Source: Pseudomonadota bacterium (GTDB lineage: Bacteria; Desulfobacterota; Desulfobulbia; Desulfobulbales; JAGXFP01). From it: 64,000 nucleotides of DNA. Below, in pieces: positions 9,074 through 25,722 of this stretch. The stretch is from NCBI GenBank assembly GCA_018823285.1, contig JAHJIQ010000007.1, forward strand, positions 4,536 through 68,535, written 5' to 3'. Numbering within the stretch: the stretch's first letter is position 1; each line of letters begins with the position of its first letter. The notes under the pieces were generated by a model that was not told the origin of the DNA, did not search any database, and worked only from the letters and a program-made list of their open reading frames with translations. A program made the position numbers and the translations under genes.

Positions 9074-10132
9074 ATGAAAGTCCTGAAAGCTTTAGGTATT
9101 GTCCTGGTGCTGATGGCGTTGGCCTATGTGGGCGTTATGTTGCCCGGCGGGCGAACGCTGTTCGGGGTCGTCTTCCCGTACCTGGCCCTGGCCATATTCA
9201 TCATCTTCTTCATCGCCAAGGTGGTGGGCTGGGCTAAGTCTCCTGTACCATTCAGGATCCCGACCACCAGTGGCCAGGCGAACTCTCTGCCGTGGATCAA
9301 ACAGAACAAGCTGGATTGCCCTTCAACCACTGCAGGGGTGATCGGCAGGATGGTGCTGGAGATCTTCGCTTTCCGGTCACTGTTTAAAAACACCCGGGCG
9401 GAGATTCACGAAGGACCGAAACTTGCCTACGGGAGCAGTAAGTTCCTCTGGCTGTTCGGGATCATGTTTCATTATTCGTTCCTGTTGATCGTTCTTCGCC
9501 ACCTGCGCCTCTTCACCGACCCGATTCCCGCTTTTGTTCACGCGCTGGAATTTGGCGACGGTTTTCTGCAGGTGGGGGCGCCCACCCTGTACATTACCGA
9601 TCTGGTATTCATCGGGGCGCTGACCTTTCTTTTCCTGCGTAGACTTGTTCTTCCCGCTATCCGCTACATATCCCTGCCGGCAGATTATTTTCCGCTTTTC
9701 CTGATTCTCGGCATCGGTATCACCGGGGTGTTGATGCGGTACTTTGTCCGGGTTGATGTCGTCAGCATCAAGATGCTGACTCATGGTCTGGCAACTTTTC
9801 AGCCGGTTATATCTGAAAATGTCAGCGGCCTATTCTTTGTCCATCTTTTTCTGGTCGCGTCCCTTCTTGCCTATTTCCCATTCAGCAAGTTGATGCATCT
9901 GGGCGGGGTGTTTTTAAGTCCGACCAGGAATCTTGCCAACAACAGCCGTATGGTGAGACATATCAATCCCTGGAATGATCCCTCCATCAAACCCCATTCT
10001 TATGCCAGTTATGAAGATGAGTTCCGGGAGTTTATGGTAGATGCGGGTCTGCCTGTCGATAAAGAGTTGCCGCCAGCGCCAGCTGAGGAAGTGGCTCCAG
10101 CGGAAGGTGGAGCGTCGGCGGAATCTGAATGA
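9074..10132 (+). CDS. dsrM: DsrM, NarI-like di-heme b membrane subunit of the DsrMKJOP complex
   Basis: Polytopic membrane protein of 352 aa at the first position of an M-K-J-O-P gene order. Confidence 0.85.
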   Translation: MKVLKALGIVLVLMALAYVGVMLPGGRTLFGVVFPYLALAIFIIFFIAKVVGWAKSPVPFRIPTTSGQANSLPWIKQNKLDCPSTTAGVIGRMVLEIFAFRSLFKNTRAEIHEGPKLAYGSSKFLWLFGIMFHYSFLLIVLRHLRLFTDPIPAFVHALEFGDGFLQVGAPTLYITDLVFIGALTFLFLRRLVLPAIRYISLPADYFPLFLILGIGITGVLMRYFVRVDVVSIKMLTHGLATFQPVISENVSGLFFVHLFLVASLLAYFPFSKLMHLGGVFLSPTRNLANNSRMVRHINPWNDPSIKPHSYASYEDEFREFMVDAGLPVDKELPPAPAEEVAPAEGGASAESE

Positions 10133-10164
10133 GCATGAAAATCAGCTGATAAGGAACTACGAAA

Positions 10165-11823
10165 ATGGCAGATACTAAAGTTGCACAAATGAGTGAGAGC
10201 GTTGCGAAAGACCCGTCGCTGATGACGGGCGCCGTCCCGAAGAAGGACTGGATGGATACGCCGGCAGTGTTCAAGCCGGGGAACTACTGTTACCCGGGCA
10301 AGGAAAGCATGGCAGCGTATCATGGCAAAAATCTTCCCGGGAAATTCGGTCCGGCTCGCGTCTGGGATGTTGAGAGTGATGACTGGAAGCTGGTGGATAA
10401 CTGGCAGCAGATCCTCCTCGAGGGGATGAAGGAGCGGCTGGAAAAGTTCCGTTCTTTCAAAATCTTCATGGACTGCTGTGTGCGTTGTGGTGCCTGTGCC
10501 GACAAATGTCACTTTTTTCTTGGCACCGGAGACCCCAAAAACATGCCGGTACTGCGGGCCGAACTATTGCGGTCGGTCTACCGGAATGATTTTACCACCG
10601 CCGGAAAAATCCTTGGCAGCCTCGCCGGCGGCAGGGAGATGACCTTTGAGGTTCTTAAAGAGTGGTTCATGTATTTCTACCAGTGTACTGAATGCCGGCG
10701 TTGTTCAGTATTCTGCCCCTATGGGATTGATACAGCCGAAATTACCATGATGGGACGTGAGCTTCTCCATCTGGTCGGAGTCAATACCAACTGGATCCTT
10801 GAGCCTGCGGCAAATTCCAACCGGACAGGGAACCATCTCGGTCTCCAGCCGCACACCTTTAAAGAGAATGCTGAATTCCTTCTTGATGATATCGAGGAAG
10901 TGACCGGCATAAGACTGAACAGCCTTACATTCAACCGGAAGGGAGCTGAAATCCTTTTTGTAATTCCTTCGGCCGATGTATTTGCAGATCCCGGCATCTT
11001 CACCTTCATGGGCTATCTGCTTCTTTTCGATCATATCGGTCTGGATTATACGATCAGTACCTATTCTTCCGAGGGTGGCAACTTCGGGCTCTTCACCAAC
11101 AACGAGCTGATGAAGAAACTGAACGGCAAGATGTATGCCGAGGCCAAAAGACTTGGGGTTAAATGGATCCTGGGCGGTGAATGTGGTCATATGTGGAGAG
11201 TTATCCATCAGTATATGGATACCATGAACGGCCCTGCCGATTTTCTTGAGGTCCCGAAATCACCGATCACCGGCACCGTGTTTGAAAACGCCGCTTCCAC
11301 CAAGATGGTTCATATCAGTGAATTTACTGCCGATCTTATCAAGCACGACAAGTTGAAGCTCGATAAGTCCCGGAACGATCACCGGATAGTCACTTTCCAT
11401 GATTCCTGTAATCCTGCCCGGGCCATGGGTTTGCTCGATGAACCACGTTACATACTTGAGAATGTTTGCAATAATTTCCACGATATGCCTGAAAACACAA
11501 TCCGGGAACAGACTTTCTGCTGCGGTAGCGGCACCGGTCTGAACACCGGTGAGATCATGGATCTGAGGATGCGGGCTGGTCTGCCGCGCGCCAACGCGGT
11601 AAAGTACGTTGAAGAAAAGTACGGTGTCAATATGCTTGCTTGTGTTTGTGCAATTGACCGTGCCACTCTTCTGGCCCTGATGCAATATTGGAATCCGAAC
11701 GTTGAGGTGTGCGGTGTTTCCGAATTGGTCGGAAATGCTCTCATCATGGACGGGGAAAAAGAGAGAGATTCCGGACTCCGGTTCGAGCCTCTCGCAGCAA
11801 ATGAGGGTGAAACAGATGTATGA
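10165..11823 (+). CDS. dsrK: DsrK, HdrD-like catalytic iron-sulfur subunit with a CCG domain
   Basis: Two ferredoxin-type Cys clusters (CVRCGACADKC, CTECRRCSVFCP) and a CCG motif (FCCGSGTG). Confidence 0.9.
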   Translation: MADTKVAQMSESVAKDPSLMTGAVPKKDWMDTPAVFKPGNYCYPGKESMAAYHGKNLPGKFGPARVWDVESDDWKLVDNWQQILLEGMKERLEKFRSFKIFMDCCVRCGACADKCHFFLGTGDPKNMPVLRAELLRSVYRNDFTTAGKILGSLAGGREMTFEVLKEWFMYFYQCTECRRCSVFCPYGIDTAEITMMGRELLHLVGVNTNWILEPAANSNRTGNHLGLQPHTFKENAEFLLDDIEEVTGIRLNSLTFNRKGAEILFVIPSADVFADPGIFTFMGYLLLFDHIGLDYTISTYSSEGGNFGLFTNNELMKKLNGKMYAEAKRLGVKWILGGECGHMWRVIHQYMDTMNGPADFLEVPKSPITGTVFENAASTKMVHISEFTADLIKHDKLKLDKSRNDHRIVTFHDSCNPARAMGLLDEPRYILENVCNNFHDMPENTIREQTFCCGSGTGLNTGEIMDLRMRAGLPRANAVKYVEEKYGVNMLACVCAIDRATLLALMQYWNPNVEVCGVSELVGNALIMDGEKERDSGLRFEPLAANEGETDV

Positions 11824-12196
11824 TAAAGGAAAGATCATAACCGGTCTGATCGTCTTTGTGGGCCTGATCACATTCCCGATCTGGTACGGTTTCGGCAGTG
11901 CCGGCCATCTGCCGAACCCGGAGAAGCCGAAGAACGCCAAGGAATGTGTAGAAGCAGTGGATTATATGCGTACGTCTCATATGCAGCTCTTGAATGAGTG
12001 GCGGGATGATATTGTCAGAAGTGGCGGGACCCGTGCTGGGATTACCCATGACGGGACTGAATATATTCGGAGTCTGCAGAAGGGTTGCATGAAGTGTCAC
12101 ACCAACAAAGCAAAATTCTGTGACGAGTGCCATACCTATACAGCTGTAAAACCTTACTGCTGGGACTGCCACATCCAGCCTAAGGAGGCGAACTGA
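11816..12196 (+). CDS. dsrJ: DsrJ, periplasmic triheme cytochrome c
   Basis: Three CxxCH motifs (CMKCH, CDECH, CWDCH) and an N-terminal TM/signal anchor. ATG 11816 overlaps the dsrK stop (ATGTATGA). The tracked ORF start 11702 lies inside dsrK. Confidence 0.85.
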   Translation: MYDKGKIITGLIVFVGLITFPIWYGFGSAGHLPNPEKPKNAKECVEAVDYMRTSHMQLLNEWRDDIVRSGGTRAGITHDGTEYIRSLQKGCMKCHTNKAKFCDECHTYTAVKPYCWDCHIQPKEAN

Positions 12197-13023
12197 TGGA
12201 TAACAGCAGAAGAAAATTTCTTAAACTGGCCGGAGTTTCAGCAATAGCCGGCATTGCAGCACCTGCAGCATTCAATTCCTTGTTGAAAGGCGAGGCATTT
12301 GCTTCAGGCGGCGGTAGCGGCCACGGGGAAGATAAAGCGCCAACCGGTAAGCGATATGGATTTGTAGTGGATGTTCAGAAATTCGCCGCCGATAAAGATC
12401 TTGCCCAGCGCTGTATCAATGCGTGCCATACCACCCATAATGTCCCGGACTTCGGGAAGGACAACAAGAAGGATGAGATCAAATGGATCTGGACGGAGAC
12501 CTTTGGTCATGCATTTCCCGATCACAGTCAATATAAAAAGAATACGCAGCTTGTCGATCTGCCGATTATGACTTTCTGTAACCATTGCGACAATCCTCCT
12601 TGTGTAAGGGCTTGTCCGACCAAGGCGACTTTCAAGAATGCTGACGGAATGGTGTTGATGGATTTTCATCGTTGCATCGGGTGCCGGTTCTGTATGGCGG
12701 CCTGTCCCTATGGGGCGAGGAGCTTCAACTGGCGGAATCCCGCAGTTAAGAATGAAGACGGATCATACAAGTATATTCGTCGCCCGAATCTTGATTTTCC
12801 CACCAGAATGCGGGGTGTGGTCGAGAAATGCAATATGTGCGCCGAGAGACTGGCCGAAGGCAAACAGCCTGCCTGTGTCGATGCCTGCCGGCCAACTGAC
12901 GGCATTATTTTTGGCGACTTGAATGACCCGAATTCTGAGGTGTCAAAGGTTTTGAGGGAGAAATTTACCATTCAGCGGAAACCGGCGCTTGGGACCAAGC
13001 CGTCGATTTTCTATATAATATGA
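12196..13023 (+). CDS. dsrO: DsrO, Tat-exported 4Fe-4S ferredoxin-like subunit
   Basis: Twin-arginine signal RRKFLKLAG and multiple CxxCxxC clusters. The start overlaps the dsrJ stop (TGATG). Confidence 0.9.
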   Translation: MDNSRRKFLKLAGVSAIAGIAAPAAFNSLLKGEAFASGGGSGHGEDKAPTGKRYGFVVDVQKFAADKDLAQRCINACHTTHNVPDFGKDNKKDEIKWIWTETFGHAFPDHSQYKKNTQLVDLPIMTFCNHCDNPPCVRACPTKATFKNADGMVLMDFHRCIGCRFCMAACPYGARSFNWRNPAVKNEDGSYKYIRRPNLDFPTRMRGVVEKCNMCAERLAEGKQPACVDACRPTDGIIFGDLNDPNSEVSKVLREKFTIQRKPALGTKPSIFYII

Positions 13024-13034
13024 GGTGAAAAGTC

Positions 13035-14204
13035 ATGATTGAAAAAGCACTATCTGGAAACAGATTATACTGGACATGGCTGGCTATTCTCCTCGCCATA
13101 ATGGGTGTGGGGGGCTTGTGCTACGTTCAGCAGTTCAACTACGGTCTCGGGATAACCGGTATGAGCCGGGATGTCTCATGGGGACTGTATATTTCCCAGT
13201 TCACCTTCCTGGTTGGAGTTGCCGCCGGAGGAGTTATGCTGGTGCTGCCTTACTACCTGCATAATTACAAGGTGTTCGGGAGGATTACGATCCTGGGTGA
13301 ATTCATGGCCGTGGCAGCGGTTTCCATGTGCCTGATGTTTATTCTTGCCGATCTCGGTCAGCCGATGCGGGCATTGAACGTTCTTCTGCATCCGACTCCA
13401 AACTCTATTCTTTTTTGGGACATGATCGTTCTGAACGTCTATTTGTTCCTGAATATTGTTGGTGGCTGGGTGATTCTGAATGCTGAGAAAAAAGAGGTTC
13501 CCCCGCCGAAATGGGTCAAGGCGCTCATCTATATTTCAATTCCCTGGGCGATCAGTATCCATACGGTTACGGCGTTTCTCTACTGCGGTCTTCCAGGACG
13601 TCATTACTGGTTGACTGCCATTCTGGCTCCACGCTTCCTGGCCTCAGCTTTTGCGGCCGGTCCTGCCCTGCTGGTTATCTGTGCGTTGATACTTCGACGC
13701 TATACTGCATTTGATGCTGGTAAAGAGGCAATCAACAAGTTGGTGACGATCATCACTTATGCCGCGATCCTGAACTTCTTCTTTGTCGGACTTGAACTCT
13801 TTGTCGGATATTACAGTAATATTCCGGGACATATGCATACTTTGGATTATCTCTTTTTTGGCCATGAAGATGGTGGAGTTCTTTATGATAATCTGGTTGG
13901 GCCGATGCGGTTCTCAATGTTCATCGGCATGGCAGCAACCATTGCCCTGTTGTTCCCGAAAATGCGTGACAGTTACTGCAAAATCGGCTGGCTCTGCGGC
14001 GCTATCTTCCTTTCTCTATGGATTGATAAAGGGCTTGGCCTGGTTCTTGGCGGGTTTGTGCCTTCCCCGCTTGACTATTATGTCGAGTACTACCCAACGG
14101 CTATTGAGCTAGGCATCACCGCCGCAGTGTGGGCAACAGGCGCCTTTATCCTGACCGTACTTTACAAGGTGGCCATTTCGGTTAAGCTGACCAAAGAAGC
14201 ATAA
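13035..14204 (+). CDS. dsrP: DsrP, NrfD/PsrC-like quinone-interacting membrane subunit
   Basis: 389-aa polytopic membrane protein at the last position of the dsrMKJOP order. Confidence 0.85.
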   Translation: MIEKALSGNRLYWTWLAILLAIMGVGGLCYVQQFNYGLGITGMSRDVSWGLYISQFTFLVGVAAGGVMLVLPYYLHNYKVFGRITILGEFMAVAAVSMCLMFILADLGQPMRALNVLLHPTPNSILFWDMIVLNVYLFLNIVGGWVILNAEKKEVPPPKWVKALIYISIPWAISIHTVTAFLYCGLPGRHYWLTAILAPRFLASAFAAGPALLVICALILRRYTAFDAGKEAINKLVTIITYAAILNFFFVGLELFVGYYSNIPGHMHTLDYLFFGHEDGGVLYDNLVGPMRFSMFIGMAATIALLFPKMRDSYCKIGWLCGAIFLSLWIDKGLGLVLGGFVPSPLDYYVEYYPTAIELGITAAVWATGAFILTVLYKVAISVKLTKEA

Positions 14205-14240
14205 AGTAGATTTTGACCTGAAGGTCATTTTGTCGATTAA

Positions 14241-14272
14241 AGCAAGCCTCCCATCGGGAGGCTTGCTTTTTT
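14241..14272 (+). terminator. Rho-independent terminator after dsrP
   Basis: agcaagcctccc-atcg-ggaggcttgct stem-loop followed by a T-run. Confidence 0.8.
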
Positions 14273-14329: not shown

Positions 14330-16672
14330 ATGAAAAAATACAGCAATATTCTTTCCAGGATCGGCAATACTCCATTAGTCCCTATTCAGAGGCTGAATCC
14401 ATACAAGAATGTGTTAATTCTTGCGAAGCTTGAGTCATTTAATCCGGGAGGTTCGGTTAAGGAGCGTATTGCTCTCAACATGATCGAGACCGCTGAGAAG
14501 AGCGGCGAACTGACGCCGGACAAGATTGTCCTTGAAGCAACCAGCGGCAATACAGGCATCGGTCTGGCGATGGTCTGTGCTGTCAAGGGCTATAAATGTC
14601 AGCTGGTCATGCCGGAATCAGCAAGTATTGAACGGCGCAAGATCATGACCGCCTATGGAGCGGAAATTCTTCTCACTCCAGCCAAAAGAGCAACGGATGG
14701 AGCGATTGAACAGGCTTACGCCATGGCCCGGGAACACCCTGACCGTTATTTTTTGACTGACCAGTTCAATAACGATGCCAACTGGCAGACCCATTACCAG
14801 CATACCGGCCCGGAAATCTGGGAGCAGACCGATGGCAAGGTTACGGATGTTGTTGCAACTCTTGGAACCACAGGCACCGTGATGGGGATCTGCCGTTATA
14901 TGGCGGAACATCACCCTGAGGTGAAAGTGACCGCCATGGAACCGTTTCTGGGTCATAAGCTTCAGGGTCTGAAGAATATGAAGGAGTCATATAAGCCCGG
15001 GATATTCAAGCGAAATGAACCCTTTCAGGTGATCAATATCCCTGATGAAGAGGCTTTTAGTAAGGCCAGACAGTTGGCGGCCAGGGAGGGTTTGTTTGTC
15101 GGGATGAGTTCCGGAGCGGCCATGTGTGCCGCTCTGACCAGAGCTGCCCAGATTGAGAAGGGCCTCATAGTTGTTATTTTCCCGGATGGCGGCGAGAAAT
15201 ATCTTTCCACCCCGCTGTTTAGTGCAGAACAGGTCAAGGAGGAGGTGGAGGTTGTATCCCGGCTCAAGTTTTACAATACCCTGTCGAAGCGCAAAGAGCT
15301 CTTCAGACCTGTAAATCCCAAAACGGTAACTTTCTACACCTGTGGGCCGACCGCGCATGAGCCGGCCAATCTGGGCCATTGTCGACGCTTTATTCATTCC
15401 GATCTTGTGAGTCGCACATTGAAGTACCGTGGCTATGAGGTGAAGTTCTTCATGAATTTCACAGACCTCGACGACAACACCATCAGAGGTGCCGAGGAGA
15501 ACGGTCAGTCTGTTGCCGATTTCACTGCTGGATATATCAGCCAATTCAAGCAGGATATTGCAGCTTTAGGGGTACTCCCTGCTACCGAATATCCCAAGGC
15601 TTCGGAACATGTCAACCGGATGATCGATATGTCCCGTGACCTCGTGAAAAAAGGTTTTGCTTACGAAAAACATGGCTCCATCTATTTTGATATTTCCAAA
15701 TTTTCCGGGTACGGGAGGCTTTCCGGTATCGATCTCAGCAAGATCCAGCATGGGAAAACCGTTGATCTGGATGATTATGAGAAGGACAGCCCGGTTGATT
15801 TTACCCTGCTTAAAAGATCAGCCCTTACTGAGCTGAAGAGCGGAATATATTTTGAAACCGAATGGGGAAAGATGAGACCTGGCTGGCATATTGAGTGTGC
15901 GGCGATGTCTTGTCATTTCCTTGGTGATACTATTGATATTCATTCCAGCAGTCGGGATCTGATGTTTCCGCATCATGAGAACGAGATCGCCATTGCCGAG
16001 GCACTCAGCGGCAAACCGCTGGCCAATTTCTGGCTGCACAGTGAGCTTGTGCTGGTAGAAGGAAAGAAGTTGAGCCGGGGGGCAGGGAATCTCATTACCC
16101 TGAAAGATCTTGTTGCTAAAGGATATTCAGCCCGCCAGGTCCGGTATTATCTGTTACGAACGCATTATCGTAAACCCATCAATTTTTCTTACCGGAAATT
16201 TGATGCAGCCTTGGCAAGTTTGAAGAGGCTCGACGAATTCTGCATCAAGATTCTGTGCCTTCCACCTGACTTGCCCCATCCTGAAGTGGCCGCTTATCTG
16301 ACAGAGCTTGAGGAAAGGTTTTTTGCAGGACTCGATGATGATCTGAACGTCTCAAAGGCTTTTGGAGCCTTGTTTGACTTCGCCAAGAGGGTCAACCCTA
16401 TTCTGGAAGCAGGGCGGCTTGATCGGGACCAGAAGGCGTATATCCTTGATGCGTTAAGGCGGATCAATTCGGTGCTCAATATTCTGAAACTTGAGGAATG
16501 TCCTTTGGCCCCGGAAATTGACAAGCTCATAAAAGAAAGGGAAGATGCCCGCCGGAACGGTGACTGGGTCAAAGCTGACGGGGTTCGCGATCAGCTTGCC
16601 AGTCAGGGTATTGAGGTGATTGATACTGCGAAAGGGACGACGGTCTGGAAAGAGAAGAAAGGTGGCAAATAG
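14330..16672 (+). CDS. Fusion protein: N-terminal PLP-dependent cysteine synthase (CysK/CysM-like) plus C-terminal full-length cysteinyl-tRNA synthetase-like module
   Basis: Residues 1-~300: NTPLVPI...SFNPGGSVKERIA...SGNTGIGLA (cysteine synthase). Residues ~310-780 align to CysRS (YTCGPT..., GWHIECAAMS, FPHHENEIA, C-terminal DGVRDQLASQGIEVIDT). One uninterrupted 780-codon ORF. Confidence 0.85.
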   Translation: MKKYSNILSRIGNTPLVPIQRLNPYKNVLILAKLESFNPGGSVKERIALNMIETAEKSGELTPDKIVLEATSGNTGIGLAMVCAVKGYKCQLVMPESASIERRKIMTAYGAEILLTPAKRATDGAIEQAYAMAREHPDRYFLTDQFNNDANWQTHYQHTGPEIWEQTDGKVTDVVATLGTTGTVMGICRYMAEHHPEVKVTAMEPFLGHKLQGLKNMKESYKPGIFKRNEPFQVINIPDEEAFSKARQLAAREGLFVGMSSGAAMCAALTRAAQIEKGLIVVIFPDGGEKYLSTPLFSAEQVKEEVEVVSRLKFYNTLSKRKELFRPVNPKTVTFYTCGPTAHEPANLGHCRRFIHSDLVSRTLKYRGYEVKFFMNFTDLDDNTIRGAEENGQSVADFTAGYISQFKQDIAALGVLPATEYPKASEHVNRMIDMSRDLVKKGFAYEKHGSIYFDISKFSGYGRLSGIDLSKIQHGKTVDLDDYEKDSPVDFTLLKRSALTELKSGIYFETEWGKMRPGWHIECAAMSCHFLGDTIDIHSSSRDLMFPHHENEIAIAEALSGKPLANFWLHSELVLVEGKKLSRGAGNLITLKDLVAKGYSARQVRYYLLRTHYRKPINFSYRKFDAALASLKRLDEFCIKILCLPPDLPHPEVAAYLTELEERFFAGLDDDLNVSKAFGALFDFAKRVNPILEAGRLDRDQKAYILDALRRINSVLNILKLEECPLAPEIDKLIKEREDARRNGDWVKADGVRDQLASQGIEVIDTAKGTTVWKEKKGGK

Positions 16673-17304: not shown

Positions 17305-18588
17305 TCATCTCTCCAGATCACTGAAGATAAAATGGGTGAGGGCTTCTGCTTCCTTCGCGGTAGCGATAAAGGGGGGCATGTATGCTCTTTTATTTCCCAT
17401 ACTCTCATAAATAAAGGTCATGCCTTTGGGTTTCATGCCTTGGGTCAATGAGGTGATGTTGTTGAACGGACCACCGACGGAATGGCAAGAGAGACAGAGA
17501 AGATCAAAGACCTGTCTGCCTGTTTTGCTCATGTTTTCGTCTTTAATCTCCCGGGTATCGACCCATTTTGCTGTATGCAGAATTCCAGCATCTTTTACTG
17601 CATCGATCTCAGTTTTCAGAATCGTGTTTGAGTACATGAAGTTATGAATAATATACGGTCTGCGCCCGCTTTCGCGGATGAATTCAAATGAGCCAAGATA
17701 AAAGAGGCCGAGTACCAGCATGACTGCTGCCAGACCCCGGTTGATGTTGGCAGGCATCTTAATTGCCATACCGAGGCCGCCAAGAATAATCAGAGGTGAA
17801 CAGACAATGAAAATCTTGATTACAGGTTGGATGTCGGGCATGTTTTTAAAAATCAATTCGTGCATGTCCGGGGGCAGGGCGCTTTTGTACCACCATGCGG
17901 AAGTGAGAAAGAGAACAAAGGGGGCCAGAAGCCACTTGGCGCAATAACGGACAAGGGTTGTTCTCAGAGCATCATCTTTTGACCATGAAGCGGTAAGGAA
18001 GCCGAACAGGCCTGCCAACATGATGGCGAGAAAGAATCTGAAAAAGAGGGACGGCCAAAACGTGGGATGAAAAAAACCGTGCCAGAAATTACCAGTGATT
18101 AGCCATTCGCCCGGGGTAAGCATGAAACCTACAATGCCGTTGATCACAAACAGCGATAAGAACGCTGCGGCAAAATATATCCAGCCGATGGTCAGATGGG
18201 TCCTGTTGCTGATTCGGTTGAATGTTTTGTAATAGATAAACAAGGAAATGATCTCGACCAGGAAAAAGACCCACTCGGTGGCCCACGCAAAAACAAAGAG
18301 ATGGATCAGTTTAGAAGTTGCGGCCGGATTTAGAACCGAGATTGTGAACCAGATACCTACTCCGGTCAAAGCCCCGAGCACCATGGTGAGTAGAACAAAA
18401 AGTCGGGTGTGTTTATAAACATACCCTAGGATACTTGGACTGTTTTCACGCAAGCCCTTATGTTCCGTAAGCACCAGAAAAAGTCCGCCGCCGATCGCGA
18501 AATGGGAAATATAGACATGAAGAGTCGCAATCAGGGCAATAAGAAGACCGCCACCGGCAAAGTCTAGTTGCCATACTGGATAGTTCAT
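17305..18588 (-). CDS. Cytochrome bd (CydA)-superfamily-like membrane protein with a fused C-terminal monoheme cytochrome c domain
   Basis: N-terminal TM helices align by eye to CydA (LHVYISHFAIGGGLFLVLTE vs CydA MYHFLFVPLTLG...; ATEWVFFLVE vs AIEGLMAFFLES). The C-terminal ~90 aa carry CLSCH plus a distal Met (YMPPF). Confidence 0.55.
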   Translation of the reverse strand: MNYPVWQLDFAGGGLLIALIATLHVYISHFAIGGGLFLVLTEHKGLRENSPSILGYVYKHTRLFVLLTMVLGALTGVGIWFTISVLNPAATSKLIHLFVFAWATEWVFFLVEIISLFIYYKTFNRISNRTHLTIGWIYFAAAFLSLFVINGIVGFMLTPGEWLITGNFWHGFFHPTFWPSLFFRFFLAIMLAGLFGFLTASWSKDDALRTTLVRYCAKWLLAPFVLFLTSAWWYKSALPPDMHELIFKNMPDIQPVIKIFIVCSPLIILGGLGMAIKMPANINRGLAAVMLVLGLFYLGSFEFIRESGRRPYIIHNFMYSNTILKTEIDAVKDAGILHTAKWVDTREIKDENMSKTGRQVFDLLCLSCHSVGGPFNNITSLTQGMKPKGMTFIYESMGNKRAYMPPFIATAKEAEALTHFIFSDLER

Positions 18589-19655
18589 GACTTACCCTCC
18601 ATTTCACTGCAGACTTTTTTCATCATCCACCATATCAGCCAAATTGCAAAGAGTAGGGCGGTAGAAAAGATGATGAACGGACCGTACACCGGATTGACTG
18701 GTAGCTCGGAGATGTTAATGTAATCCTGCAGATAGCTGTTGCGAGCGATTTCACGGGCAACAGTCATCATCATGATGGTTGCGAGTGTCCACAGTGTAGC
18801 TTTATAAATTCGATAAGATTGAGCATAAATCACTGACAGGGCACAGAATGCAACGGAAGCGATTATCATTATGAAAAAAGCTTTGCCGGCCGGATCAGGC
18901 GTAATAATAATATTGTTTTGCAGGGCGCTCAGGAACCAGAAGCCCACGCCAAAATTGATGATGGTGCTGTAGGTGAACCAGTTGCAGCCGTATGTAATTC
19001 GCTTTTTGCGAGTTTCTTGGGTCAACCCCTGATCACGGTCTGAAAAAACTGCCAGGGATAAACCTCCAACGGCGATCGCAGACAAGATAAAATGAAGATA
19101 TCTGGGAAGCAGGGCTGAGTCGGAAAGATTCAACATCCAACCGCCACGGCAGGAAAAATATCCGAGCCAGCTTGCAGGATCCTGCATGATGCTGATGTTG
19201 TTTGTGAAGAAAAAAGAGATCAGCAGAAACATGGCGATCGGCAGGCCGAGCAACAAGGTCTGGTGACCGCATCTCTCAAACTGGAAATTGTATAAGTATA
19301 CCAGATAGTAACTGATGATAAGAAGGACCACGATAGTCAACCAGAAAGCGGCCATGAGGACTGTGCTGGTATAAAAAAATTGGCCGTATAATGTCTGGAG
19401 GAATAAGAGGGGGGCAACACCGAAATTTATCGTAAATGCCAGCGAGTAGGGGAGGGTCCGGACCAGATCTCTGCTGAGAGAATTTTGTTCTGTGTCAACG
19501 CCGGCCGGTGGCCCGGCAAGTGCAATGAAACCGGAGCCCAGCATAATGTTCATTGCCAGAAAATGAAGAAAAGTGGTTGCTATGAGAAAGATCTGCAGCC
19601 AGACCCAGGAAACCGGAATTGCTTCCGGAGGCGGCATCAGGGAAATAGGATCCAT
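18585..19655 (-). CDS. Polytopic membrane protein, partner of the bd-like cytochrome (related TM1 His motif)
   Basis: 356 aa, about 10 TM helices. FLHFLAMNIMLGSGFIAL resembles TM1 of the downstream gene. 4-nt ATGA overlap with that gene. Confidence 0.5.
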   Translation of the reverse strand: MDPISLMPPPEAIPVSWVWLQIFLIATTFLHFLAMNIMLGSGFIALAGPPAGVDTEQNSLSRDLVRTLPYSLAFTINFGVAPLLFLQTLYGQFFYTSTVLMAAFWLTIVVLLIISYYLVYLYNFQFERCGHQTLLLGLPIAMFLLISFFFTNNISIMQDPASWLGYFSCRGGWMLNLSDSALLPRYLHFILSAIAVGGLSLAVFSDRDQGLTQETRKKRITYGCNWFTYSTIINFGVGFWFLSALQNNIIITPDPAGKAFFIMIIASVAFCALSVIYAQSYRIYKATLWTLATIMMMTVAREIARNSYLQDYINISELPVNPVYGPFIIFSTALLFAIWLIWWMMKKVCSEMEGKS

Positions 19656-20945: not shown

Positions 20946-21881
20946 TTATTCAACAGTAACTGATCCCATGCTGGCTTCGGAACCAGCACCAATGGCAACG
21001 TTAGCAGACTTGTCAACATTGGCTTTGTTGGAAATTGTGCCTTTGATGTCCGCATTCTTGATGGTGACAGAACCCATATTTGCGGTAGCGCCCTTACCAA
21101 TGGCAACGTTTGCTGACTTGCTGACGTTAGACTGGTTGGAAACAGTGCCTTTCACATTAGCTCTGTCCAAAGTCACGGAACCCATATTGGCAGTAGCGCC
21201 TTGACCGATGGCAACGTTAGCAGACTTGTCAACATTAGCCTTGTTGGAAACAGTCCCTTTAATGTTGCTGTTTTTCATGGTAACAGAACCCATATTTGCG
21301 GTAGCGCCCTTGCCGATGGCAACGTTTGCGGACTTGCTGACGTTAGAGCGGTTGGAAACGGTGCCCTGCACACTGCCCCTTTCCATGGTAACTGAGCCCA
21401 TGTTGGCGGTAGCGCCCTGGCCGATAGCAACGTTGGCGGATTTGTCGACGTTGGCCCGGTTTGAAATGGTGCCCTTTACATTACCACCCTTCACAGTTAC
21501 AGAACCCATATTGGCGGTAGCGCCCTTGCCAATGGCAACGTTTGCGGACTTGCTGACATTGGACTGGTTGGAAACAGTGCCTTTGATATTAGCCCTGTCA
21601 AGAGACACGGAACCCATGTTGGCGGTAGCGCCCTGACCGATGGCAACGTTTGCAGACTTGTCAACATTGGACTTGTTGGAAACGGTGCCTTGAATGTTGG
21701 AGCCTTTAACGCCTACCGAACCCATCCTGGCGGTGGCACCCTTACCGATGGCAACGTTTGCGGACTTGCTGACATTGGACTGGTTGGAAACAGTACCTTT
21801 AATGTCGGATTTTGCCATTGAGGCAGTTGAAAAACCCATGACCAGACTTAATGCTGTTACTGCGATGACTGCTTTCTTCAT
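20946..21881 (-). CDS. Secreted tandem-repeat protein, 8 x 36-aa repeats (curlin-like core NVAIGxGATANMGSV)
   Basis: Signal peptide ...STASMA/KSD, then eight head-to-tail 36-aa units (GTVSNxSNVxKSANVAIGxGATANMGSVxxxxxxxK) that alternate between two subtypes. Strong RBS aaggagggg. Confidence 0.8.
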   Translation of the reverse strand: MKKAVIAVTALSLVMGFSTASMAKSDIKGTVSNQSNVSKSANVAIGKGATARMGSVGVKGSNIQGTVSNKSNVDKSANVAIGQGATANMGSVSLDRANIKGTVSNQSNVSKSANVAIGKGATANMGSVTVKGGNVKGTISNRANVDKSANVAIGQGATANMGSVTMERGSVQGTVSNRSNVSKSANVAIGKGATANMGSVTMKNSNIKGTVSNKANVDKSANVAIGQGATANMGSVTLDRANVKGTVSNQSNVSKSANVAIGKGATANMGSVTIKNADIKGTISNKANVDKSANVAIGAGSEASMGSVTVE

Positions 21882-21929
21882 TTTAACCCCTCCTTAAGTG
21901 GTTGTTTAGAAGTGTGGACACCCGCGCTT

Positions 21930-24900
21930 CTACTTCATGATAACTGAGTTTTTGTTGGACTTGCTGCCACCGGTGGCGACATTGATATTCTGTCCGAAAC
22001 TGAAGGGAGAATCAGTGTCGTTCACCGTAATACCTCTACCTGATGAAACCGATACATTGCCATTCACAGTGCCACTTTTTATAATTACGGCGCCGGAATT
22101 GGCTTCAGAACCGGATCCGACAGCGGCATTTACTGCCACCATACCGCCGTGGACATTGGTTGAAACATTGCCCCGGACGGTGCTGTTTTCGATTTTGGTG
22201 GTGCCCATGTTGGCCTCGGAATTGCTGCCGACTGCGACATTAATGGCCCCTCCACGAACCTTATTGGTGATATTGCCGCCGACATTGCTGTTTCTGATGA
22301 TTGTCGCGGCCTGGTTGGCTTCAGCTCTGCTGCCGACGGCGACGTTCAGTGCTCCACCCCCAACTGTATTCTTGATGTTCCCGCGGACCGTGCTGTTTTC
22401 GATGTTGGTGGCCGCCTGATTGGCTATCGCACGATTCCCGACGGCAACGTTCAGTGCTGCACCACCCACAGTGTTGGTGATGTTGCCCTTAACATCGCTG
22501 TTTTCGATGTTGGTAGCTGCCTGATTGGCAACTGTACGGTTTCCCACTGCTACGTTCAAAGCCGCGCCGGCAACCTGATTGTTTACATTTCCGGAAACAT
22601 TGCTGTTTTTTATCTTCAAGGCTGCCTGATTGGCCTCTGATCTGTTGCCCACCGCAACATTCAGGGCGGCTCCGCCGACTGTGTTCTTAGCAGTGCCTTT
22701 GAAGCTGCTGTTTTCCATCTTGACCGCAGCCTGGTTGGCCTCTACCCTGTTGCCCACTGCGACGTTTAGAGCAGCACCGGCAACTGTGTTTACTGCATTT
22801 CCGCTGAAACTGCTGTTTTCCATTTTGACGGCGGCCTGGTTGGCTTCGGCCCTGTTGCCCACAGCAACGTTCAGAGCAGCTCCGGCAACGGTGTTTACCG
22901 CATTGCCTTTGAAGCTGCTGTTCTCCATTTTGACCGCAGCCTGATTAGCCTCAGCCCTGTTGCCTACTGCAACGTTCAGGCCAGCCCCAGCCACGGTGTT
23001 CACTGCGTTGCCGCTGAAATTGCTGTTCTCCATTTTAACGGCGGCCTGGTTGGCCTCTACCCTGTTCCCCACAGCAACGTTCAAGGCGGCGCCGCCAACG
23101 GTATTCACGGCATTGCCCTTGAAGCTGCTGTTTTCCATCTTGACTGCAGCCTGGTTGGCCTCAGCCCTGTTGCCGACAGCGACGTTCAATCCTGCCCCGG
23201 CCACGGTGTTCACCGCATTGCCTTTGAAATCACTGTTTTTCATGTTCACAGCGGCTTGGTTTGCTTCGGCCCGGTTACCAACAGCAACGTTCAGGGCAGC
23301 ACCGCCGACGGTGTTGACGGCATTGCCTTTGAAACTGCTGTTCTCCATCTTGACGGCAGCCTGATTGGCCTCTACCCTGTTCCCCACCGCAACATTCAGG
23401 CCAGCCCCAGCCACGGTGTTCACCGCGTTACCATTGAAGCTGCTGTTTTCCATTTTGACCGCGGCCTGGTTTGCTTCGGCTCTATTGCCGACTGCAACGT
23501 TTAAAGCCGCTCCGCCAACGGTATTGACTGCAGCGCCTTTGAACTCGCTGTTTTTCATGTTCACAGCGGCCTGGTTGGCTTCTGCCCGATTGCCGACAGC
23601 AACGTTAAGAGCGCCGCCGACGACCGTATTAACGGCTGCGCCTTTCATTGTACTGTTTTCCATCTTCAGTGCGGCCTGATTTGCTTCAGCCCGATTCCCT
23701 ACGGCAACGTTAACTGCCCCAAGGGCTCCGATAGAGTTCACAGCGGCACCTTCAAGGCTGCTGTTCTCCATTTTCACTGAGGCCTGGTTGGCTTCAACCC
23801 GGTTGCCGACTGCAACGTTGACCAGGTTCTGACCGATAGCGGTATTGACAATTGCGCCTTTGACCTTGGAGTTCTCCAAGCTGGTTGCGACCTGTCTTGC
23901 TTCAGCCCTGTTGCCGACGCCTACATTGACGAGATTCTGGCCGACGGCACTGTTGACAATCGCGCCGGTAACCGATGAATTATTAAGGTTGGTTGCGGCC
24001 TGGCTTGCGGTGACTCTGTTACCGACGCCTACATTAACCAGATTTTGCCCGACTGCGGTGTTGATGGCTGCACCGGTCATCTGGCTGCCGCTCATTTTAA
24101 TGGAGGCCTGATTGGCTTCGACCCTGTTGCCGACCCCGACGTTAACCATGTTTTGCCCAACAGCGGTATTAATGGCGGCACCGGTGAGCTTTGATTTTTC
24201 CAGGGTTGTTGCTGCCTGGGTGGCATCGACCCTGTTGCCGACTCCGACATTGACCATATTCTGACCGACGGCAGTATTCAAAACGGCGCCGGTCACCTGA
24301 CTGCCGTTCATTTTGATTGACGCCTGGTTGGCTTCGACCCTGTTTCCAACTCCGACATTGATCATGTTTTTACCGACAGCCGTATTTATGGCGGCGCCAG
24401 TCAATTTGCTGTTATCCATTACCACTGAAGACTGGCTCGCTTTGACTCTGTTGCCGACCGCGACGTTAATTGACTGGTCAACCACGGAAGTATTCAGGAT
24501 TGCGCCGGTCGACGTGCTGTTCTCCATGCGGATCGAAGACTGGTTCGCATCAACCTGATTTCCTACAGCGACATTGATGGCATTTTTGCCCATGGCCGTA
24601 TTGATTGCAGCCCCGGTAATATTGCTGTTCTTGGTATTTATTGATGCCTGATTGGCAGAAACTTTGTTGCCAACGGCGACGTTAATGTTCTTGTCAACCA
24701 TGTTGGTGTTGATCGCTGCGCCGGTGAGTTTGCCACCAAGTTTTATTGATCCCTGGGTTGCCTCAGCTTTGTTGCCAACAGCAACGTTGACGTTCTGCTT
24801 TCCTTTATTGGCGTTAATAACCGCGCCGGACATATCAAGATTCTTAAGTGCAACTGAACTCTGATGGGCTGTACTGTCTTTGCCCACCGCTACGTTTACA

Positions 24901-25025: not shown

Positions 25026-25323
25026 AGCGGCCCTCCCGGAACGCCTGAAGGCTGTTCCAGAATTGAGATTGTTCATTTATTACTGGTCAGCAAGTGATCG
25101 TATATAATTTCCAAGAGTCAGTGTTACATGCAAAGGTGAATATAATATTCAAAAGAAAGGCTCGTTCTGTTTCTGCCTTGGATACTTGAATAGACATTTG
25201 GAAGCCTTAATAACATAATATGCATTATACAAATGCTCCGCTCAACTGACAGTGAACTTTTGCCAATTTTTCTGTGAACAAATCACTCTTTGTAAATATG
25301 GGTTTTCTGTAAACCATTTGCGG

Positions 25324-25722
25324 TTAATCCCAGGTGAAATCGGCGCTGATTTTTGCAGCGCCGGAGACGTTGGAAACATTCAGAACAGTGTCAAACGACA
25401 CGGACTCTCCGTTCATAATCGGCTGATGCCCCTTTATGGGCATTTCTGTTGAGTGGAGCACGGCACCGGATATTGACAGAATGTGCAGAACAAGGTGCCC
25501 CCGCAGAACAATTCGGGAGATGTTTTTAATGCTTCCTTTCACAATTACTACTTTATTGGCAGGGTGATACTCTGCTTCCATGGAATCAAGAGTGACATAG
25601 GCATATTCCTGATCGGTCGAAGTAAGTGTTTTTCCGATGGCCGAGTTGTCGCTAACAGAGAACAACGTAAGTGCTGTAAGTAGCACAAATACCAGTATGG
25701 TGTTAGAAAGTCTTTTGGTCAT
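25324..25722 (-). CDS. Small secreted/anchored accessory protein (predicted beta-rich)
   Basis: N-terminal hydrophobic signal (MTKRLSNTILVFVLLTALTLFSV). The remainder has alternating beta-strand-like patterns. Lies between the secretion genes and the repeat genes. Confidence 0.5.
   Translation of the reverse strand: MTKRLSNTILVFVLLTALTLFSVSDNSAIGKTLTSTDQEYAYVTLDSMEAEYHPANKVVIVKGSIKNISRIVLRGHLVLHILSISGAVLHSTEMPIKGHQPIMNGESVSFDTVLNVSNVSGAAKISADFTWD

What the first reader, a model, noticed from the sequence alone, without database searches (positions are those of the whole stretch)
14330..16672. Single-polypeptide fusion of cysteine synthase and a CysRS module with non-canonical HIGH and KMSKS motifs
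A 780-codon ORF joins a complete CysK/CysM-type PLP enzyme to a complete CysRS-like enzyme. The zinc and Cys-binding residues are present (CG...WHIEC...HHENE). The class I signatures deviate, however: HIGH reads NLGH (ANLGHCR vs CHIGHGR) and KMSKS reads KLSRG. The fusion would channel newly made cysteine, or a persulfide or selenocysteine made by the same PLP chemistry, directly into an adenylating/ligating module. The altered motifs raise the possibility of a paralog with a non-canonical function. The gene sits between dsrMKJOP and a tRNA gene.
Basis: partly seen in the sequence, partly recalled or inferred. Interest (0 to 1): 0.55.

Follow-up and report, generated by a model that had tools for sequence, protein, structure and literature searches.

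The report
Cysteine synthase fused to remodelled CysRS
The gene really does fuse an intact cysteine-making enzyme to a cysteinyl-tRNA synthetase, but across a large family in sulfur-cycling bacteria the synthetase half has lost constraint on its ATP-binding motifs while keeping its cysteine/zinc pocket and tRNA-recognition domain, so it is probably a repurposed tRNA/cysteine-binding module and not an ordinary housekeeping enzyme.

Summary
ORF 14330-16672 (+) encodes 780 aa: a complete CysM-type PLP enzyme, a roughly 13-residue linker, and a complete CysRS-like module with NLGH for HIGH and KLSRG for KMSKS. The fusion is not rare: there are hundreds of protein clusters across Desulfobulbales (including the isolates Desulfofustis limnaeus and Desulfotalea psychrophila), Desulfobacterales, Desulfosudaceae and Thermodesulfatator, plus split versions in which a PALP gene sits 3-5 nt upstream. 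All of these form one divergent CysRS clade. In that clade 76 of 97 canonical-conserved positions are kept, including every Zn/Cys-pocket and anticodon-domain residue. The losses concentrate in ATP-site elements (HIGH H37/G39, the GGG-D turn, KMSKS K269/S270, KIIK K73). In the Desulfobacter branch the KMSKS lysines and W205 are gone, the protein fails NCBI's cysS model and is named "cysteine synthase", yet the module stays under selection. The CysM half is invariant throughout. The dsrMKJOP adjacency is incidental: a terminator lies between them and the synteny holds only in close relatives. The best reading is a CysM coupled to a repurposed Cys/tRNA-Cys-binding pseudo-synthetase. The alternative, an atypical but active housekeeping CysRS, is not excluded for this branch. 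Whether a second canonical cysS sits in the same genome could not be tested directly.

The parts
14330..16672 (+). Whole fusion ORF, 780 aa (CysM-type PLP enzyme + CysRS-like module)
   Evidence: 100% identical NCBI protein P0001
14330..15223 (+). CysM/CysK-type O-acetylserine sulfhydrylase domain (residues 1-298); PLP-Lys motif SVKER at nt 14453-14467, TSGNTG at 14540-14557, GTTGT at 14864-14878, SSG at 15107-15115
   Evidence: Pfam PALP 4e-69; TIGR01136 360.8 bits vs cutoff 344.15; best PDB matches Salmonella/E. coli CysM, E 1e-78, covering CysM residues 4-296 of 303; motifs kept in ~100% of 352 family members
15224..15262 (+). Short linker (residues 299-311), low-confidence tether
   Evidence: AlphaFold pLDDT <50 for residues 292-309, pTM 0.58; least conserved segment
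15263..16207 (+). CysRS-like Rossmann catalytic domain with CP insertion (residues 312-626)
   Evidence: Pfam tRNA-synt_1e 6.5e-94; aligns to E. coli CysRS residues 2-314
15368..15388 (+). HIGH-equivalent NLGH followed by clade-specific CRR (residues 347-353)
   Evidence: H37 kept in 17% and G39 in 32% of 153 fused sequences; C41 96% and R43 99% are newly fixed
15341..15352 (+). CGPT: Zn ligand Cys338 (= E. coli C28) and Gly339
   Evidence: invariant in all fused sequences
15884..15898 (+). WHIEC: Trp519 (= W205), His520, Zn ligand Cys523 (= C209)
   Evidence: zero entropy in the window's subclade; W205->Leu in the Desulfobacter-type branch
15941..15985 (+). HSSSRD...HHENE: remodelled 'HGGGxD' nucleotide-binding turn, then Zn ligands His548 (= H234) and Glu552 (= E238)
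   Evidence: G226 is 100% Gly in canonical CysRS but Ser in 137/153 fused; D229 kept in only 69%; H234, H235 and E238 kept
16067..16081 (+). KMSKS-equivalent loop KLSRG (residues 580-584)
   Evidence: K269-equivalent entropy 2.86 bits vs 0.00 in canonical, rank 11/430; S270 -> Glu/Asp; K266 and M267 still conserved in this subclade
16208..16654 (+). Stem/DALR helical domain (residues 627-725) and C-terminal anticodon-binding domain (726-775)
   Evidence: Pfam DALR_2 and CysS_C; equivalents of R423, R427, D436, R439 and D451 kept in at least 99% of 153 fused sequences and 120/120 Desulfobacter-type
14239..14269 (+). Terminator-like hairpin (14-bp stem, 8 GC pairs, T-run) between the dsrP stop and the fusion start: a separate transcription unit
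9074..14204 (+). dsrMKJOP operon upstream (context only, not part of the system)
   Evidence: Pfam NarI-like, Fer4_8, Fer4_11 and NrfD; synteny only in L001, L006, L036, L087-L089
16873..16949 (+). tRNA-Arg(TCT) downstream (context only)

Best explanation
The gene encodes an active CysM-type cysteine synthase tethered to a CysRS-derived module that belongs to a distinct, old paralog clade. Shown: this clade is always coupled to a CysM-type gene, either fused or as a gene 3-5 nt downstream. It strictly retains the Zn-thiolate cysteine pocket and the tRNA-Cys anticodon-binding domain. It has relaxed or lost the residues that canonical CysRS uses to bind ATP and stabilise adenylate formation. Inferred: the module no longer serves as the cell's main ATP-dependent CysRS. 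Instead it acts as a cysteine- and tRNA-Cys-binding unit that couples cysteine synthesis by the CysM half to the state of the cysteine/tRNA-Cys pool. That is the same logic as HisZ (a HisRS paralog regulating HisG) or the HisRS-like domain of GCN2, which senses uncharged tRNA. A separate canonical cysS elsewhere in the genome would do the housekeeping charging. In the window's own branch (Desulfurivibrionaceae-like) erosion is only partial (K266, R269, G39 and H40 remain), so residual charging activity is possible.
For: (1) Monophyletic divergent clade containing fused and split forms, sister to canonical HIGN-type CysRS (NJ tree; representatives). (2) Recurrent coupling to CysM: fused in more than 350 clusters; split with the PALP gene 3 nt upstream (L002-L004) or 5 nt upstream (L086, L091). 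(3) Site-specific pattern: 76 of 97 canonical-conserved positions kept, including all Zn/Cys and anticodon-domain positions. The 16 lost positions include H37, G39, K73, G226, K269, S270 and G272, with G227 and D229 partly lost. (4) Within the window's own subclade, four of the five highest-entropy canonical-invariant sites are ATP-site residues (K269 2.86 bits, G39 1.89, H37 1.36, D229 1.10), while pocket and anticodon sites have zero entropy. (5) The Desulfobacter/Desulfobacula branch has K266->Ser (120/120), W205->Leu (119/120) and HIGH reading NIGQ or DITH. It fails TIGR00435 (294 vs cutoff 340) and NCBI mostly names it 'cysteine synthase'. Yet it keeps all four Zn ligands and five anticodon-domain residues in 120/120 and 70% mean identity in the catalytic region, which indicates repurposing and not decay. 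Such proteins cannot be the only CysRS of those genomes, which include 4.8-6.0 Mb contigs. (6) Graded TIGR00435 scores: canonical 485-595; this clade 294-451; window 412. The CysM half stays at 356-389 in all. (7) A Desulfobulbaceae isolate, Desulfolithobacter dissulfuricans, expresses a 487-aa 'cysteine--tRNA ligase' (GF1_07220; PMC9751629 supplement), whereas all 120 best hits to a Desulfobulbales CysRS-module profile are fused or truncated. So canonical-size CysRS exists in this order. (8) Stand-alone cysteine synthases also exist in relatives, so the CysM half is itself an extra copy.
Against: (1) Co-occurrence of a canonical cysS with the fusion in one genome was never observed directly, because the genome scan and homology searches were capped. 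(2) The window protein passes NCBI's cysS equivalog cutoff, and the fusion is the protein annotated 'cysteine--tRNA ligase' in the isolates D. limnaeus and D. psychrophila. (3) In the Desulfobulbales branch K266, M267, H40 and R42 remain highly conserved and a new invariant Arg (R43) follows HIGH. This could be a remodelled but working ATP site, comparable to ArgRS lacking KMSKS or human TyrRS with KMSSS (my own recall, not tested here). (4) E. coli CysRS K266A and K269A mutants still supported cell-free translation (PMC5660078), so K269 is not strictly essential for charging. (5) 76 of 97 conserved core positions retained is a lot for a pure sensor. (6) Neighbours are housekeeping genes. (7) The regulatory mechanism is an analogy with no direct evidence.
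Confidence: 0.5

Rival explanations
1. True bifunctional enzyme: in Desulfobulbales the fusion is the housekeeping (possibly only) CysRS. It has an unusual but working ATP site (x-L-x-H-C-R-R plus K-M-S-x-E/D), and the CysM half simply supplies cysteine nearby. Only the Desulfobacterales/Thermodesulfatator branches later became pseudo-synthetases.
For: Passes TIGR00435 (412, 403 and 395 bits for the window, D. psychrophila and D. limnaeus). Annotated as the cysteine--tRNA ligase in isolates. Intact Zn/Cys pocket, T68 and anticodon domain. K266, M267, H40 and R42 conserved and a new invariant R43. The window itself keeps a basic residue at position 269 (KLSRG). E. coli K269A still supports translation. 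Basal clade members are nearly canonical (P0121 reads HLGN/KMSRS and scores 451 bits). A Nanoarchaeota PALP-CysRS fusion with fully canonical motifs (P0130, 517 bits) shows the architecture is compatible with real CysRS function. Genomic neighbourhoods are housekeeping.
Against: The K269 equivalent takes A, R, S, P, T, H, L or K among proteins at least 70% identical, and G39 takes S, A, D or E. That is not the pattern of a site under catalytic constraint. G226 (100% Gly in canonical) is Ser, and D229 varies D/E/N. Scores are 75-180 bits below canonical. A 487-aa CysRS is expressed in a Desulfobulbaceae isolate. The family-wide conserved core does not include the ATP site.
Confidence: 0.33
2. 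tRNA-dependent chemistry: the module docks tRNA-Cys (or Cys-tRNA-Cys made by a canonical CysRS) without using ATP, as cyclodipeptide synthases use aminoacyl-tRNAs. The PLP domain then makes or modifies the tRNA-bound or pocket-bound cysteinyl group, in a SepCysS-like or persulfide-forming route.
For: The anticodon-domain residues and Zn pocket are the most strictly conserved features, even where the KMSKS lysines are gone. The module is always coupled to a beta-replacement PLP enzyme. A newly fixed Cys next to HIGH (C351, 96%) sits near the active site. A ThiF/MoeB-type E1 gene follows the split pair in two loci.
Against: The CysM carboxylate-binding loop TSGNTG is intact, which argues for free amino-acid substrates. 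No SepRS-like partner was seen. AlphaFold gives no fixed juxtaposition of the two active sites. The ThiF link is seen in only one split lineage. No fold-type-II PLP enzyme is known to act on aminoacyl-tRNA (my own knowledge).
Confidence: 0.1
3. One reading: the PLP half makes cysteine persulfide or selenocysteine, which the ligase half adenylates and ligates, linked to dissimilatory sulfur metabolism via dsrMKJOP.
For: Host lineages are sulfur-cycling bacteria. The gene lies next to dsrMKJOP in the window and close relatives. CARS enzymes are reported to make persulfides via Lys residues of KIIK/KMSK (PMC5660078).
Against: Those very lysines (K73, K76, K269) are absent or unconstrained here. 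The dsr adjacency is lineage-specific and interrupted by a terminator. ATP-site erosion argues against an adenylating role.
Confidence: 0.05
4. Artefact: a frameshift, misassembly or read-through joining two adjacent genes.
For: Split versions of the pair exist in other lineages.
Against: The same uninterrupted ORF occurs in hundreds of independent assemblies, including the complete genome AP025516.1.
Confidence: 0.01

Closest known systems
Canonical bacterial/archaeal cysteinyl-tRNA synthetase (CysRS; TIGR00435; E. coli structure 1LI5/1U0B)
   Same: Full domain order (Rossmann with CP insertion, stem/DALR, C-terminal anticodon-binding domain). About 40-43% identity to the nearest canonical enzymes. 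Zn ligands C28/C209/H234/E238, W205, T68 and the conserved anticodon-domain residues are all present.
   Different: N-terminal CysM fusion. HIGH reads NLGH, KMSKS reads KLSRG, KIIK reads NTIR and HGGGxD reads HSSSRD. The ATP-site positions are evolutionarily unconstrained in the family. HMM score is 412 vs 485-595 for canonical. New fixed residues are C41, R43, I241 and L184.
CysM (O-acetylserine sulfhydrylase B) / CysK cysteine synthase
   Same: E 1e-78 to Salmonella/E. coli CysM over its whole length. PLP Lys, Asn loop, Gly loop and SSG are intact and invariant family-wide.
   Different: Carries a 470-residue CysRS-like C-terminal extension. Scores below the strict CysM equivalog cutoff (352 vs 394), so it is a distinct subfamily.
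HisZ-HisG (HisRS paralog as regulatory subunit of the first histidine-biosynthesis enzyme) and the HisRS-like domain of GCN2
   Same: A synthetase-derived module that keeps ligand recognition but has degenerate catalytic motifs and is coupled to metabolism of its cognate amino acid. HisZ lacks adenylation activity and mediates feedback inhibition (PMC9437257).
   Different: Class I, not class II. Coupled to the last step of the pathway, not the first. The anticodon-binding domain is retained with invariant contact residues. Covalent fusion is the dominant form. Loss of catalysis is not proven for the window's branch.
MshC (CysRS paralog, Cys:GlcN-Ins ligase of mycothiol synthesis)
   Same: CysRS-derived catalytic domain with a Zn/Cys pocket.
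   Different: MshC is ATP-dependent, acts without tRNA and is actinobacterial. Here TIGR03447 scores 200 vs cutoff 485, the anticodon domain is present and the ATP motifs are eroded.
CysRS* of some Desulfobacterales (SelC*/SelB*-linked; Mukai et al., NAR 2017)
   Same: An extra CysRS-family gene in Desulfobacterota.
   Different: CysRS* lacks the anticodon-binding domain and sits downstream of selB* (PMC5389517). The present family keeps the anticodon domain, is CysM-linked, and has no selC*-like tRNA nearby.
Other Cys-pathway/CysRS fusions found here: Nanoarchaeota PALP-CysRS (P0130) and Hexapep(CysE-like)-CysRS (P0212)
   Same: A cysteine-biosynthesis enzyme fused N-terminally to CysRS.
   Different: These keep canonical HIGN/HIGH and KMSKS motifs, score 517 bits (P0130), and fall among ordinary CysRS in the tree. 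They are likely independent, truly bifunctional fusions.

Membership tests
Cysteine--tRNA ligase (CysRS, NCBIfam TIGR00435 equivalog) | Whole-protein HMM score above the curated cutoff | tested here: met
   411.6 bits vs cutoff 340. Canonical controls score 485-595, and other members of the same clade fall to 294-339, which fails.
Cysteine--tRNA ligase (CysRS, NCBIfam TIGR00435 equivalog) | Class I HIGH signature (H-[ILVM]-G-[HN]) | tested here: not met
   NLGH in the window. Family-wide, position 1 is N/H/T/S/D and position 3 is G/S/A/D/E. Both are at least 99% conserved in 163 canonical sequences.
Cysteine--tRNA ligase (CysRS, NCBIfam TIGR00435 equivalog) | Class I KMSKS signature with the second lysine | tested here: not met
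   KLSRG in the window. The K269 equivalent is 100% Lys in canonical but only 5% in the fused clade, with entropy 2.86 bits.
Cysteine--tRNA ligase (CysRS, NCBIfam TIGR00435 equivalog) | Zn-thiolate cysteine pocket (C28, C209, H234, E238, W205, T68) | tested here: met
   All present (C338, C523, H548, E552, W519, T378) and invariant in the window's subclade.
Cysteine--tRNA ligase (CysRS, NCBIfam TIGR00435 equivalog) | C-terminal anticodon-binding domain with its conserved residues | tested here: met
   Pfam DALR_2 and CysS_C. R423, R427, D436, R439 and D451 equivalents kept in at least 99%.
Cysteine--tRNA ligase (CysRS, NCBIfam TIGR00435 equivalog) | ATP-dependent cysteine activation and charging of tRNA-Cys | not testable with these tools
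   Needs ATP-PPi exchange and aminoacylation assays, or complementation.
Cysteine--tRNA ligase (CysRS, NCBIfam TIGR00435 equivalog) | Being the genome's (sole) housekeeping cysS | tested here: inconclusive
   No second CysRS homolog in the 64-kb window or in the ±6-10 kb flanks of 40+ fusion loci. Whole genomes could not be scanned. Indirect evidence: a 487-aa CysRS in D. dissulfuricans, and eroded branch members that cannot be the sole CysRS.
Cysteine synthase CysK/CysM (NCBIfam TIGR01136 subfamily; PLP fold type II) | HMM score above cutoff | tested here: met
   360.8 vs 344.15. The strict CysM equivalog is not reached (352 vs 394.2).
Cysteine synthase CysK/CysM (NCBIfam TIGR01136 subfamily; PLP fold type II) | Catalytic PLP lysine, Asn (TSGNTG) loop, Gly loop, SSG | tested here: met
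   SVKER, TSGNTG, GTTGT and SSG at the expected positions, kept in ~100% of 352 homologs.
Pseudo-synthetase regulatory module (HisZ-like; 'works like', not homologous) | aaRS paralog with degenerate catalytic motifs but retained ligand pocket | tested here: inconclusive
   Clearly met in the Desulfobacter-type branch. Only partly met in the window's branch, where K266, R269, G39 and H40 remain.
Pseudo-synthetase regulatory module (HisZ-like; 'works like', not homologous) | Obligate coupling to a biosynthetic enzyme for the cognate amino acid | tested here: met
   Fused, or encoded 3-5 nt downstream of a CysM-type gene, in every clade member whose context was examined.
Pseudo-synthetase regulatory module (HisZ-like; 'works like', not homologous) | Coexists with a functional synthetase for the same amino acid; allosteric effect on the partner enzyme | not testable with these tools
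   Needs whole-genome gene counts and enzymology.
MshC (TIGR03447) | HMM score above cutoff; no anticodon domain | tested here: not met
   200.3 bits vs cutoff 485.1, and the anticodon domain is present.
CysRS* (SelC*-dedicated, Desulfobacterales) | Lacks the anticodon-binding domain; encoded downstream of selC*/selB* | tested here: not met
   Anticodon domain present. The only tRNA gene in the window is tRNA-Arg. Definition taken from PMC5389517.

The most novel reading that the evidence does not exclude
A previously undescribed class I pseudo-synthetase family: a CysRS-derived module that has given up ATP-dependent activation but keeps a Zn-cysteine pocket and tRNA-Cys anticodon recognition. 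It is hard-wired to a CysM cysteine synthase so that cysteine production is gated by free cysteine and/or the charging state of tRNA-Cys, or it uses Cys-tRNA-Cys as a substrate. This would be a cysteine counterpart of HisZ/GCN2 logic, widespread in Desulfobacterota and currently mis-annotated as either 'cysteine--tRNA ligase' or 'cysteine synthase'.
Probability: 0.4. Interest if true: 0.8.

Novelty: new variant of a known kind. Interest (0 to 1): 0.6.

Why it matters
If the synthetase half is a repurposed sensor or docking module, this would be the first class I example, and the first for cysteine, of a synthetase paralog wired to the biosynthesis of its own amino acid. It would also retain a tRNA-recognition domain, which suggests tRNA-charging-state control of an amino-acid synthase in bacteria. 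It would further mean that hundreds of genomes carry a mis-annotated "cysteine--tRNA ligase", and TIGR00435 is, to my recollection, one of the marker genes used in genome taxonomy. If instead the Desulfobulbales enzyme is the only CysRS, it is a natural class I synthetase working without a conserved HIGH histidine/glycine or KMSKS second lysine, which is informative for how class I enzymes bind ATP. Either outcome can be settled with simple genome counts and standard assays.

Tried and rejected
(1) Second cysS in the same genome. The window and all fetched flanks contain none. The single genome-contig scan was truncated at 600 rows and returned only fusions and distant canonical CysRS. The listing of cluster members gave no names for the nearest canonical representatives. 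PLSDB holds some mislabelled chromosomes but no fusion carrier. A usable Desulfobacterota canonical seed could not be obtained, and because each family fills the 120-row output, a generic canonical query was judged pointless and not run.
(2) Per-genome cysS counts from the literature. The aaRS census paper has no supplement held as text. Supplements for D. alkaliphilus and cable bacteria contain no hits. The PGAP name 'cysteine--tRNA ligase' cannot be searched because of the double hyphen. Only the D. dissulfuricans row was recovered.
(3) Prior description of the fusion. Seven of the ten literature searches targeted this and found none. Subscription-only literature was not searchable.
(4) Functional link to dsrMKJOP: rejected.
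(5) Conserved sulfur-carrier context: ThiF follows the split pair in one lineage only, no ThiS/CysO-like ORF was recognised, and this was not pursued further.
(6) Fixed inter-domain channel: AlphaFold gives no confident interface. No coordinates were available for contact analysis, and no fold search was run because the domain identities were already clear.
(7) A regex for the anticodon domain matched nothing through poor design. It was replaced by an alignment-based check.
(8) One look-up (P0455) found no encoding contig on record.


Full report
OBSERVATION. The ORF at 14330-16672 (+) is real and uninterrupted, at 780 aa. Pfam finds PALP (9-286), tRNA-synt_1e (325-626), DALR_2 (663-719) and CysS_C (726-770). 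NCBIfam gives cysS TIGR00435 at 411.6 bits (cutoff 340) and cysKM TIGR01136 at 360.8 bits (cutoff 344.15). The N-terminal half aligns end to end with Salmonella/E. coli CysM (E 1e-78) and has the PLP lysine (SVKER), TSGNTG, GTTGT and SSG. The C-terminal half aligns end to end with E. coli CysRS (E 1e-93). HIGH reads NLGH, KMSKS reads KLSRG, KIIK reads NTIR and the HGGGxD turn reads HSSSRD, while CGPT, WHIEC and HHENE are intact. dsrMKJOP lies upstream and tRNA-Arg(TCT) downstream.

DISTRIBUTION. The architecture is common:
- More than 120 clusters at 90% identity share at least 70% identity with the window protein. The named ones are mostly Desulfurivibrionaceae or Desulfobulbia, including RefSeq WP_423124448.1 of Hydrosulfovibrio ferrireducens.
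- A profile of Desulfocapsaceae/Desulfobulbaceae modules finds 120 more, all fused or truncated. These include the isolates Desulfofustis limnaeus (complete genome AP025516.1) and Desulfotalea psychrophila.
- A Desulfobacter-type query finds 120 more, some on 4.8-6.0 Mb contigs.
- A partial scan of species-representative genomes found 34 full-length fusions, also in Desulfosudaceae and Thermodesulfatator.
Two stand-alone lineages of the same CysRS-like clade have a separate CysM-type gene 3 nt (L002-L004) or 5 nt (L086, L091) upstream. An NJ tree (no support values) puts all of these in one clade, sister to canonical 'HIGN-type' CysRS. A Nanoarchaeota PALP-CysRS fusion with canonical motifs (P0130) and a CysE-like-CysRS fusion (P0212) fall among ordinary CysRS and look like independent fusions.

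WHAT CHANGED IN THE SYNTHETASE HALF. I compared 163 canonical CysRS with 153 fused sequences. Of 97 positions at least 85% conserved in canonical enzymes, 76 are kept. [quoted passage not shown] Sixteen are lost: V32, Y33, H37, G39, K73, T115, R168, W184, W194, G201, S210, G226, Q241, K269, S270 and G272. G227, D229 and N273 are partly lost. Most of these belong to the nucleotide-binding signature elements.

Within the window's own Desulfobulbales subclade (137 sequences, mean site entropy 0.90 bits), the K269 equivalent is the 11th most variable of 430 sites (2.86 bits, against 0.00 in canonical). G39 has 1.89 bits, H37 1.36 and D229 1.10. The pocket and anticodon positions have zero entropy. 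Not everything at the site is relaxed, however. K266, M267, H40 and R42 remain conserved there, and C41, R43, I241 and L184 are newly fixed.

In the Desulfobacter/Desulfobacula branch the change is complete and uniform. K266 is Ser in 120/120, W205 is Leu in 119/120, E208 is Gln in 120/120, and HIGH reads NIGQ, HIGQ or DITH. Yet all four Zn ligands, T68 and the five anticodon-domain residues are kept in 120/120. The catalytic region retains 70% mean pairwise identity, against 81% for the CysM half. That branch fails the cysS model (294 bits), and NCBI mostly calls it 'cysteine synthase'.

TIGR00435 scores form a gradient. Canonical enzymes score 485-595. Within this clade: P0121 451, the window 412, D. 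psychrophila 403, D. limnaeus 395, L021 377, L030 345, L029 339, P0129 300 and Desulfobacter 294. The CysM half stays at 356-389 throughout, and its catalytic motifs are present in ~100% of 352 sequences.

CONTEXT. The dsrMKJOP adjacency is found only in relatives of at least 72% identity (L001, L006, L036, L087-L089). A 14-bp-stem terminator-like hairpin with a T-run lies between dsrP and the fusion. Elsewhere the neighbours are dciA, glnA/glnD/glnB/amt, tmk and metG/holB. The rest of the window contains no further cysteine-pathway genes and no second CysRS or CysK/M homolog. AlphaFold2 on a 35-sequence family alignment gives two confident modules (mean pLDDT 85) joined by a low-confidence linker (residues 292-309, pLDDT <50). 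pTM is 0.58, so no fixed inter-domain geometry is predicted.

INTERPRETATION.
Shown: (a) an intact CysM; (b) a CysRS-derived module always coupled to CysM; (c) family-wide conservation of the Zn/Cys pocket and the anticodon domain; (d) family-wide relaxation or loss of ATP-site residues, complete in one large branch that is nevertheless under purifying selection.
Inferred: the conserved function of the module is binding a thiol ligand (cysteine or a cysteinyl group) and tRNA-Cys, not ATP-dependent activation. The most economical mechanism is regulatory coupling of cysteine synthesis to the cysteine/tRNA-Cys pool. This parallels HisZ, which lacks adenylation activity and mediates feedback inhibition of HisG (PMC9437257). 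A tRNA-dependent chemical role is a less likely alternative, because the CysM carboxylate loop is intact.

Two points limit the conclusion for the window protein itself. Its branch is only partly eroded (KLSRG keeps Lys and Arg; NLGH keeps Gly and His), and it still passes the cysS model. E. coli CysRS K266A and K269A mutants supported cell-free translation (PMC5660078). An atypical but active housekeeping CysRS therefore cannot be excluded.

THE UNRESOLVED TEST. I could not directly show a canonical cysS in a genome that carries the fusion. The indirect evidence is as follows. The Desulfobulbaceae isolate Desulfolithobacter dissulfuricans expresses a 487-aa 'cysteine--tRNA ligase' (GF1_07220), whereas every one of the 120 best matches to a Desulfobulbales CysRS-module profile is fused or truncated. 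The eroded branch must logically coexist with another route to Cys-tRNA. Relatives also have stand-alone cysteine synthases. I estimate about 0.65 that the window's organism has a separate canonical cysS.

KNOWN RELATIVES AND NOVELTY. The known CysRS paralogs are MshC and the anticodon-domain-less CysRS* of some Desulfobacterales. The present family meets the defining features of neither. Ten full-text searches, seven of them aimed at this question, found no description of a CysM-CysRS fusion or of a CysRS pseudo-synthetase, but subscription-only literature was not covered. Databases annotate the family inconsistently as 'cysteine--tRNA ligase' or 'cysteine synthase'. I rate it a new variant of a known kind (an aaRS paralog coupled to amino-acid biosynthesis), of moderate-to-high interest, with a cheap decisive test: count cysS genes in the complete genomes, then run adenylation and aminoacylation assays.

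Noticed in passing
L086:4209-7293 and L091:1470-4571 (JGI metagenome contigs): In the stand-alone lineage P0125 the gene order is CysM-type PALP, then CysRS-like (HIGL / KMSRS / FPHNENEN), then a 246-251 aa ThiF/MoeB-type E1 adenylyltransferase, all tightly spaced on one strand. No ThiS/CysO-like carrier ORF was recognised. This may hint at a protein-thiocarboxylate sulfur donor, as in the mycobacterial CysM/CysO system.
   Followed up: partly
proteins P0130, P0212, P0134: Other unusual CysRS architectures with canonical motifs: a Nanoarchaeota PALP-CysRS fusion (768 aa), a Hexapep (serine-acetyltransferase-like)-CysRS fusion (711 aa), and an 858-aa protein with an extra partial CysRS/DALR repeat.
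   Followed up: partly
PLSDB hits H2-H60: More than 500 Klebsiella pneumoniae plasmids of 220-380 kb carry an annotated cysS (about 48% identical to a HIGH-type representative), next to a transcriptional repressor gene. Piscirickettsia, Paracoccus and other plasmids also carry cysS.
   Followed up: no
PLSDB records NZ_CP154629.1 and NZ_CP084075.1: Records of 2.63 Mb (Acetoanaerobium noterae) and 2.11 Mb (Fusobacterium vincentii) sit in the plasmid collection and carry cysS with no listed annotation. They look like chromosomes filed as plasmids.
   Followed up: no
L025 and L028: Full-length fusions (50-54% identity) occur in MAGs labelled Anaerolineales and Pirellulaceae. This is either horizontal transfer or binning contamination.
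   Followed up: no
representative set: Among the 150 closest CysRS representatives the first signature reads HIGN/HVGN/HLGN (86 sequences) more often than HIGH/HLGH/HVGH/HMGH (45). So Asn at the fourth position is normal for a large canonical group, and only positions 1 and 3 are diagnostic here.
   Followed up: yes
window 17305-18588 (-) and 18585-19655 (-): A 427-aa membrane protein with only a weak match to cytochrome bd oxidase subunit I (E 1.5e-8) and a C-terminal CLSCH haem-c-type motif, followed by a 356-aa ORF with no Pfam match. This is an unusual bd-like/cytochrome c combination just downstream of the tRNA.
   Followed up: no
window 20946-28360 (-): Four consecutive large ORFs (311, 1048, 253 and 456 aa) have no Pfam match at E<=1e-5.
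   Followed up: no
precomputed Pfam column: Many fusion proteins carry a precomputed weak PF00016 (RuBisCO large chain) hit inside the CysRS catalytic region (also seen for P0122, E 2.6e-5, below the gathering score). It is almost certainly spurious.
   Followed up: partly
window 37059-39554 (+): A strong fatty-acid cis/trans isomerase (CTI) homolog (731 bits), a solvent/stress-adaptation enzyme that I know mainly from Pseudomonas and Vibrio.
   Followed up: no
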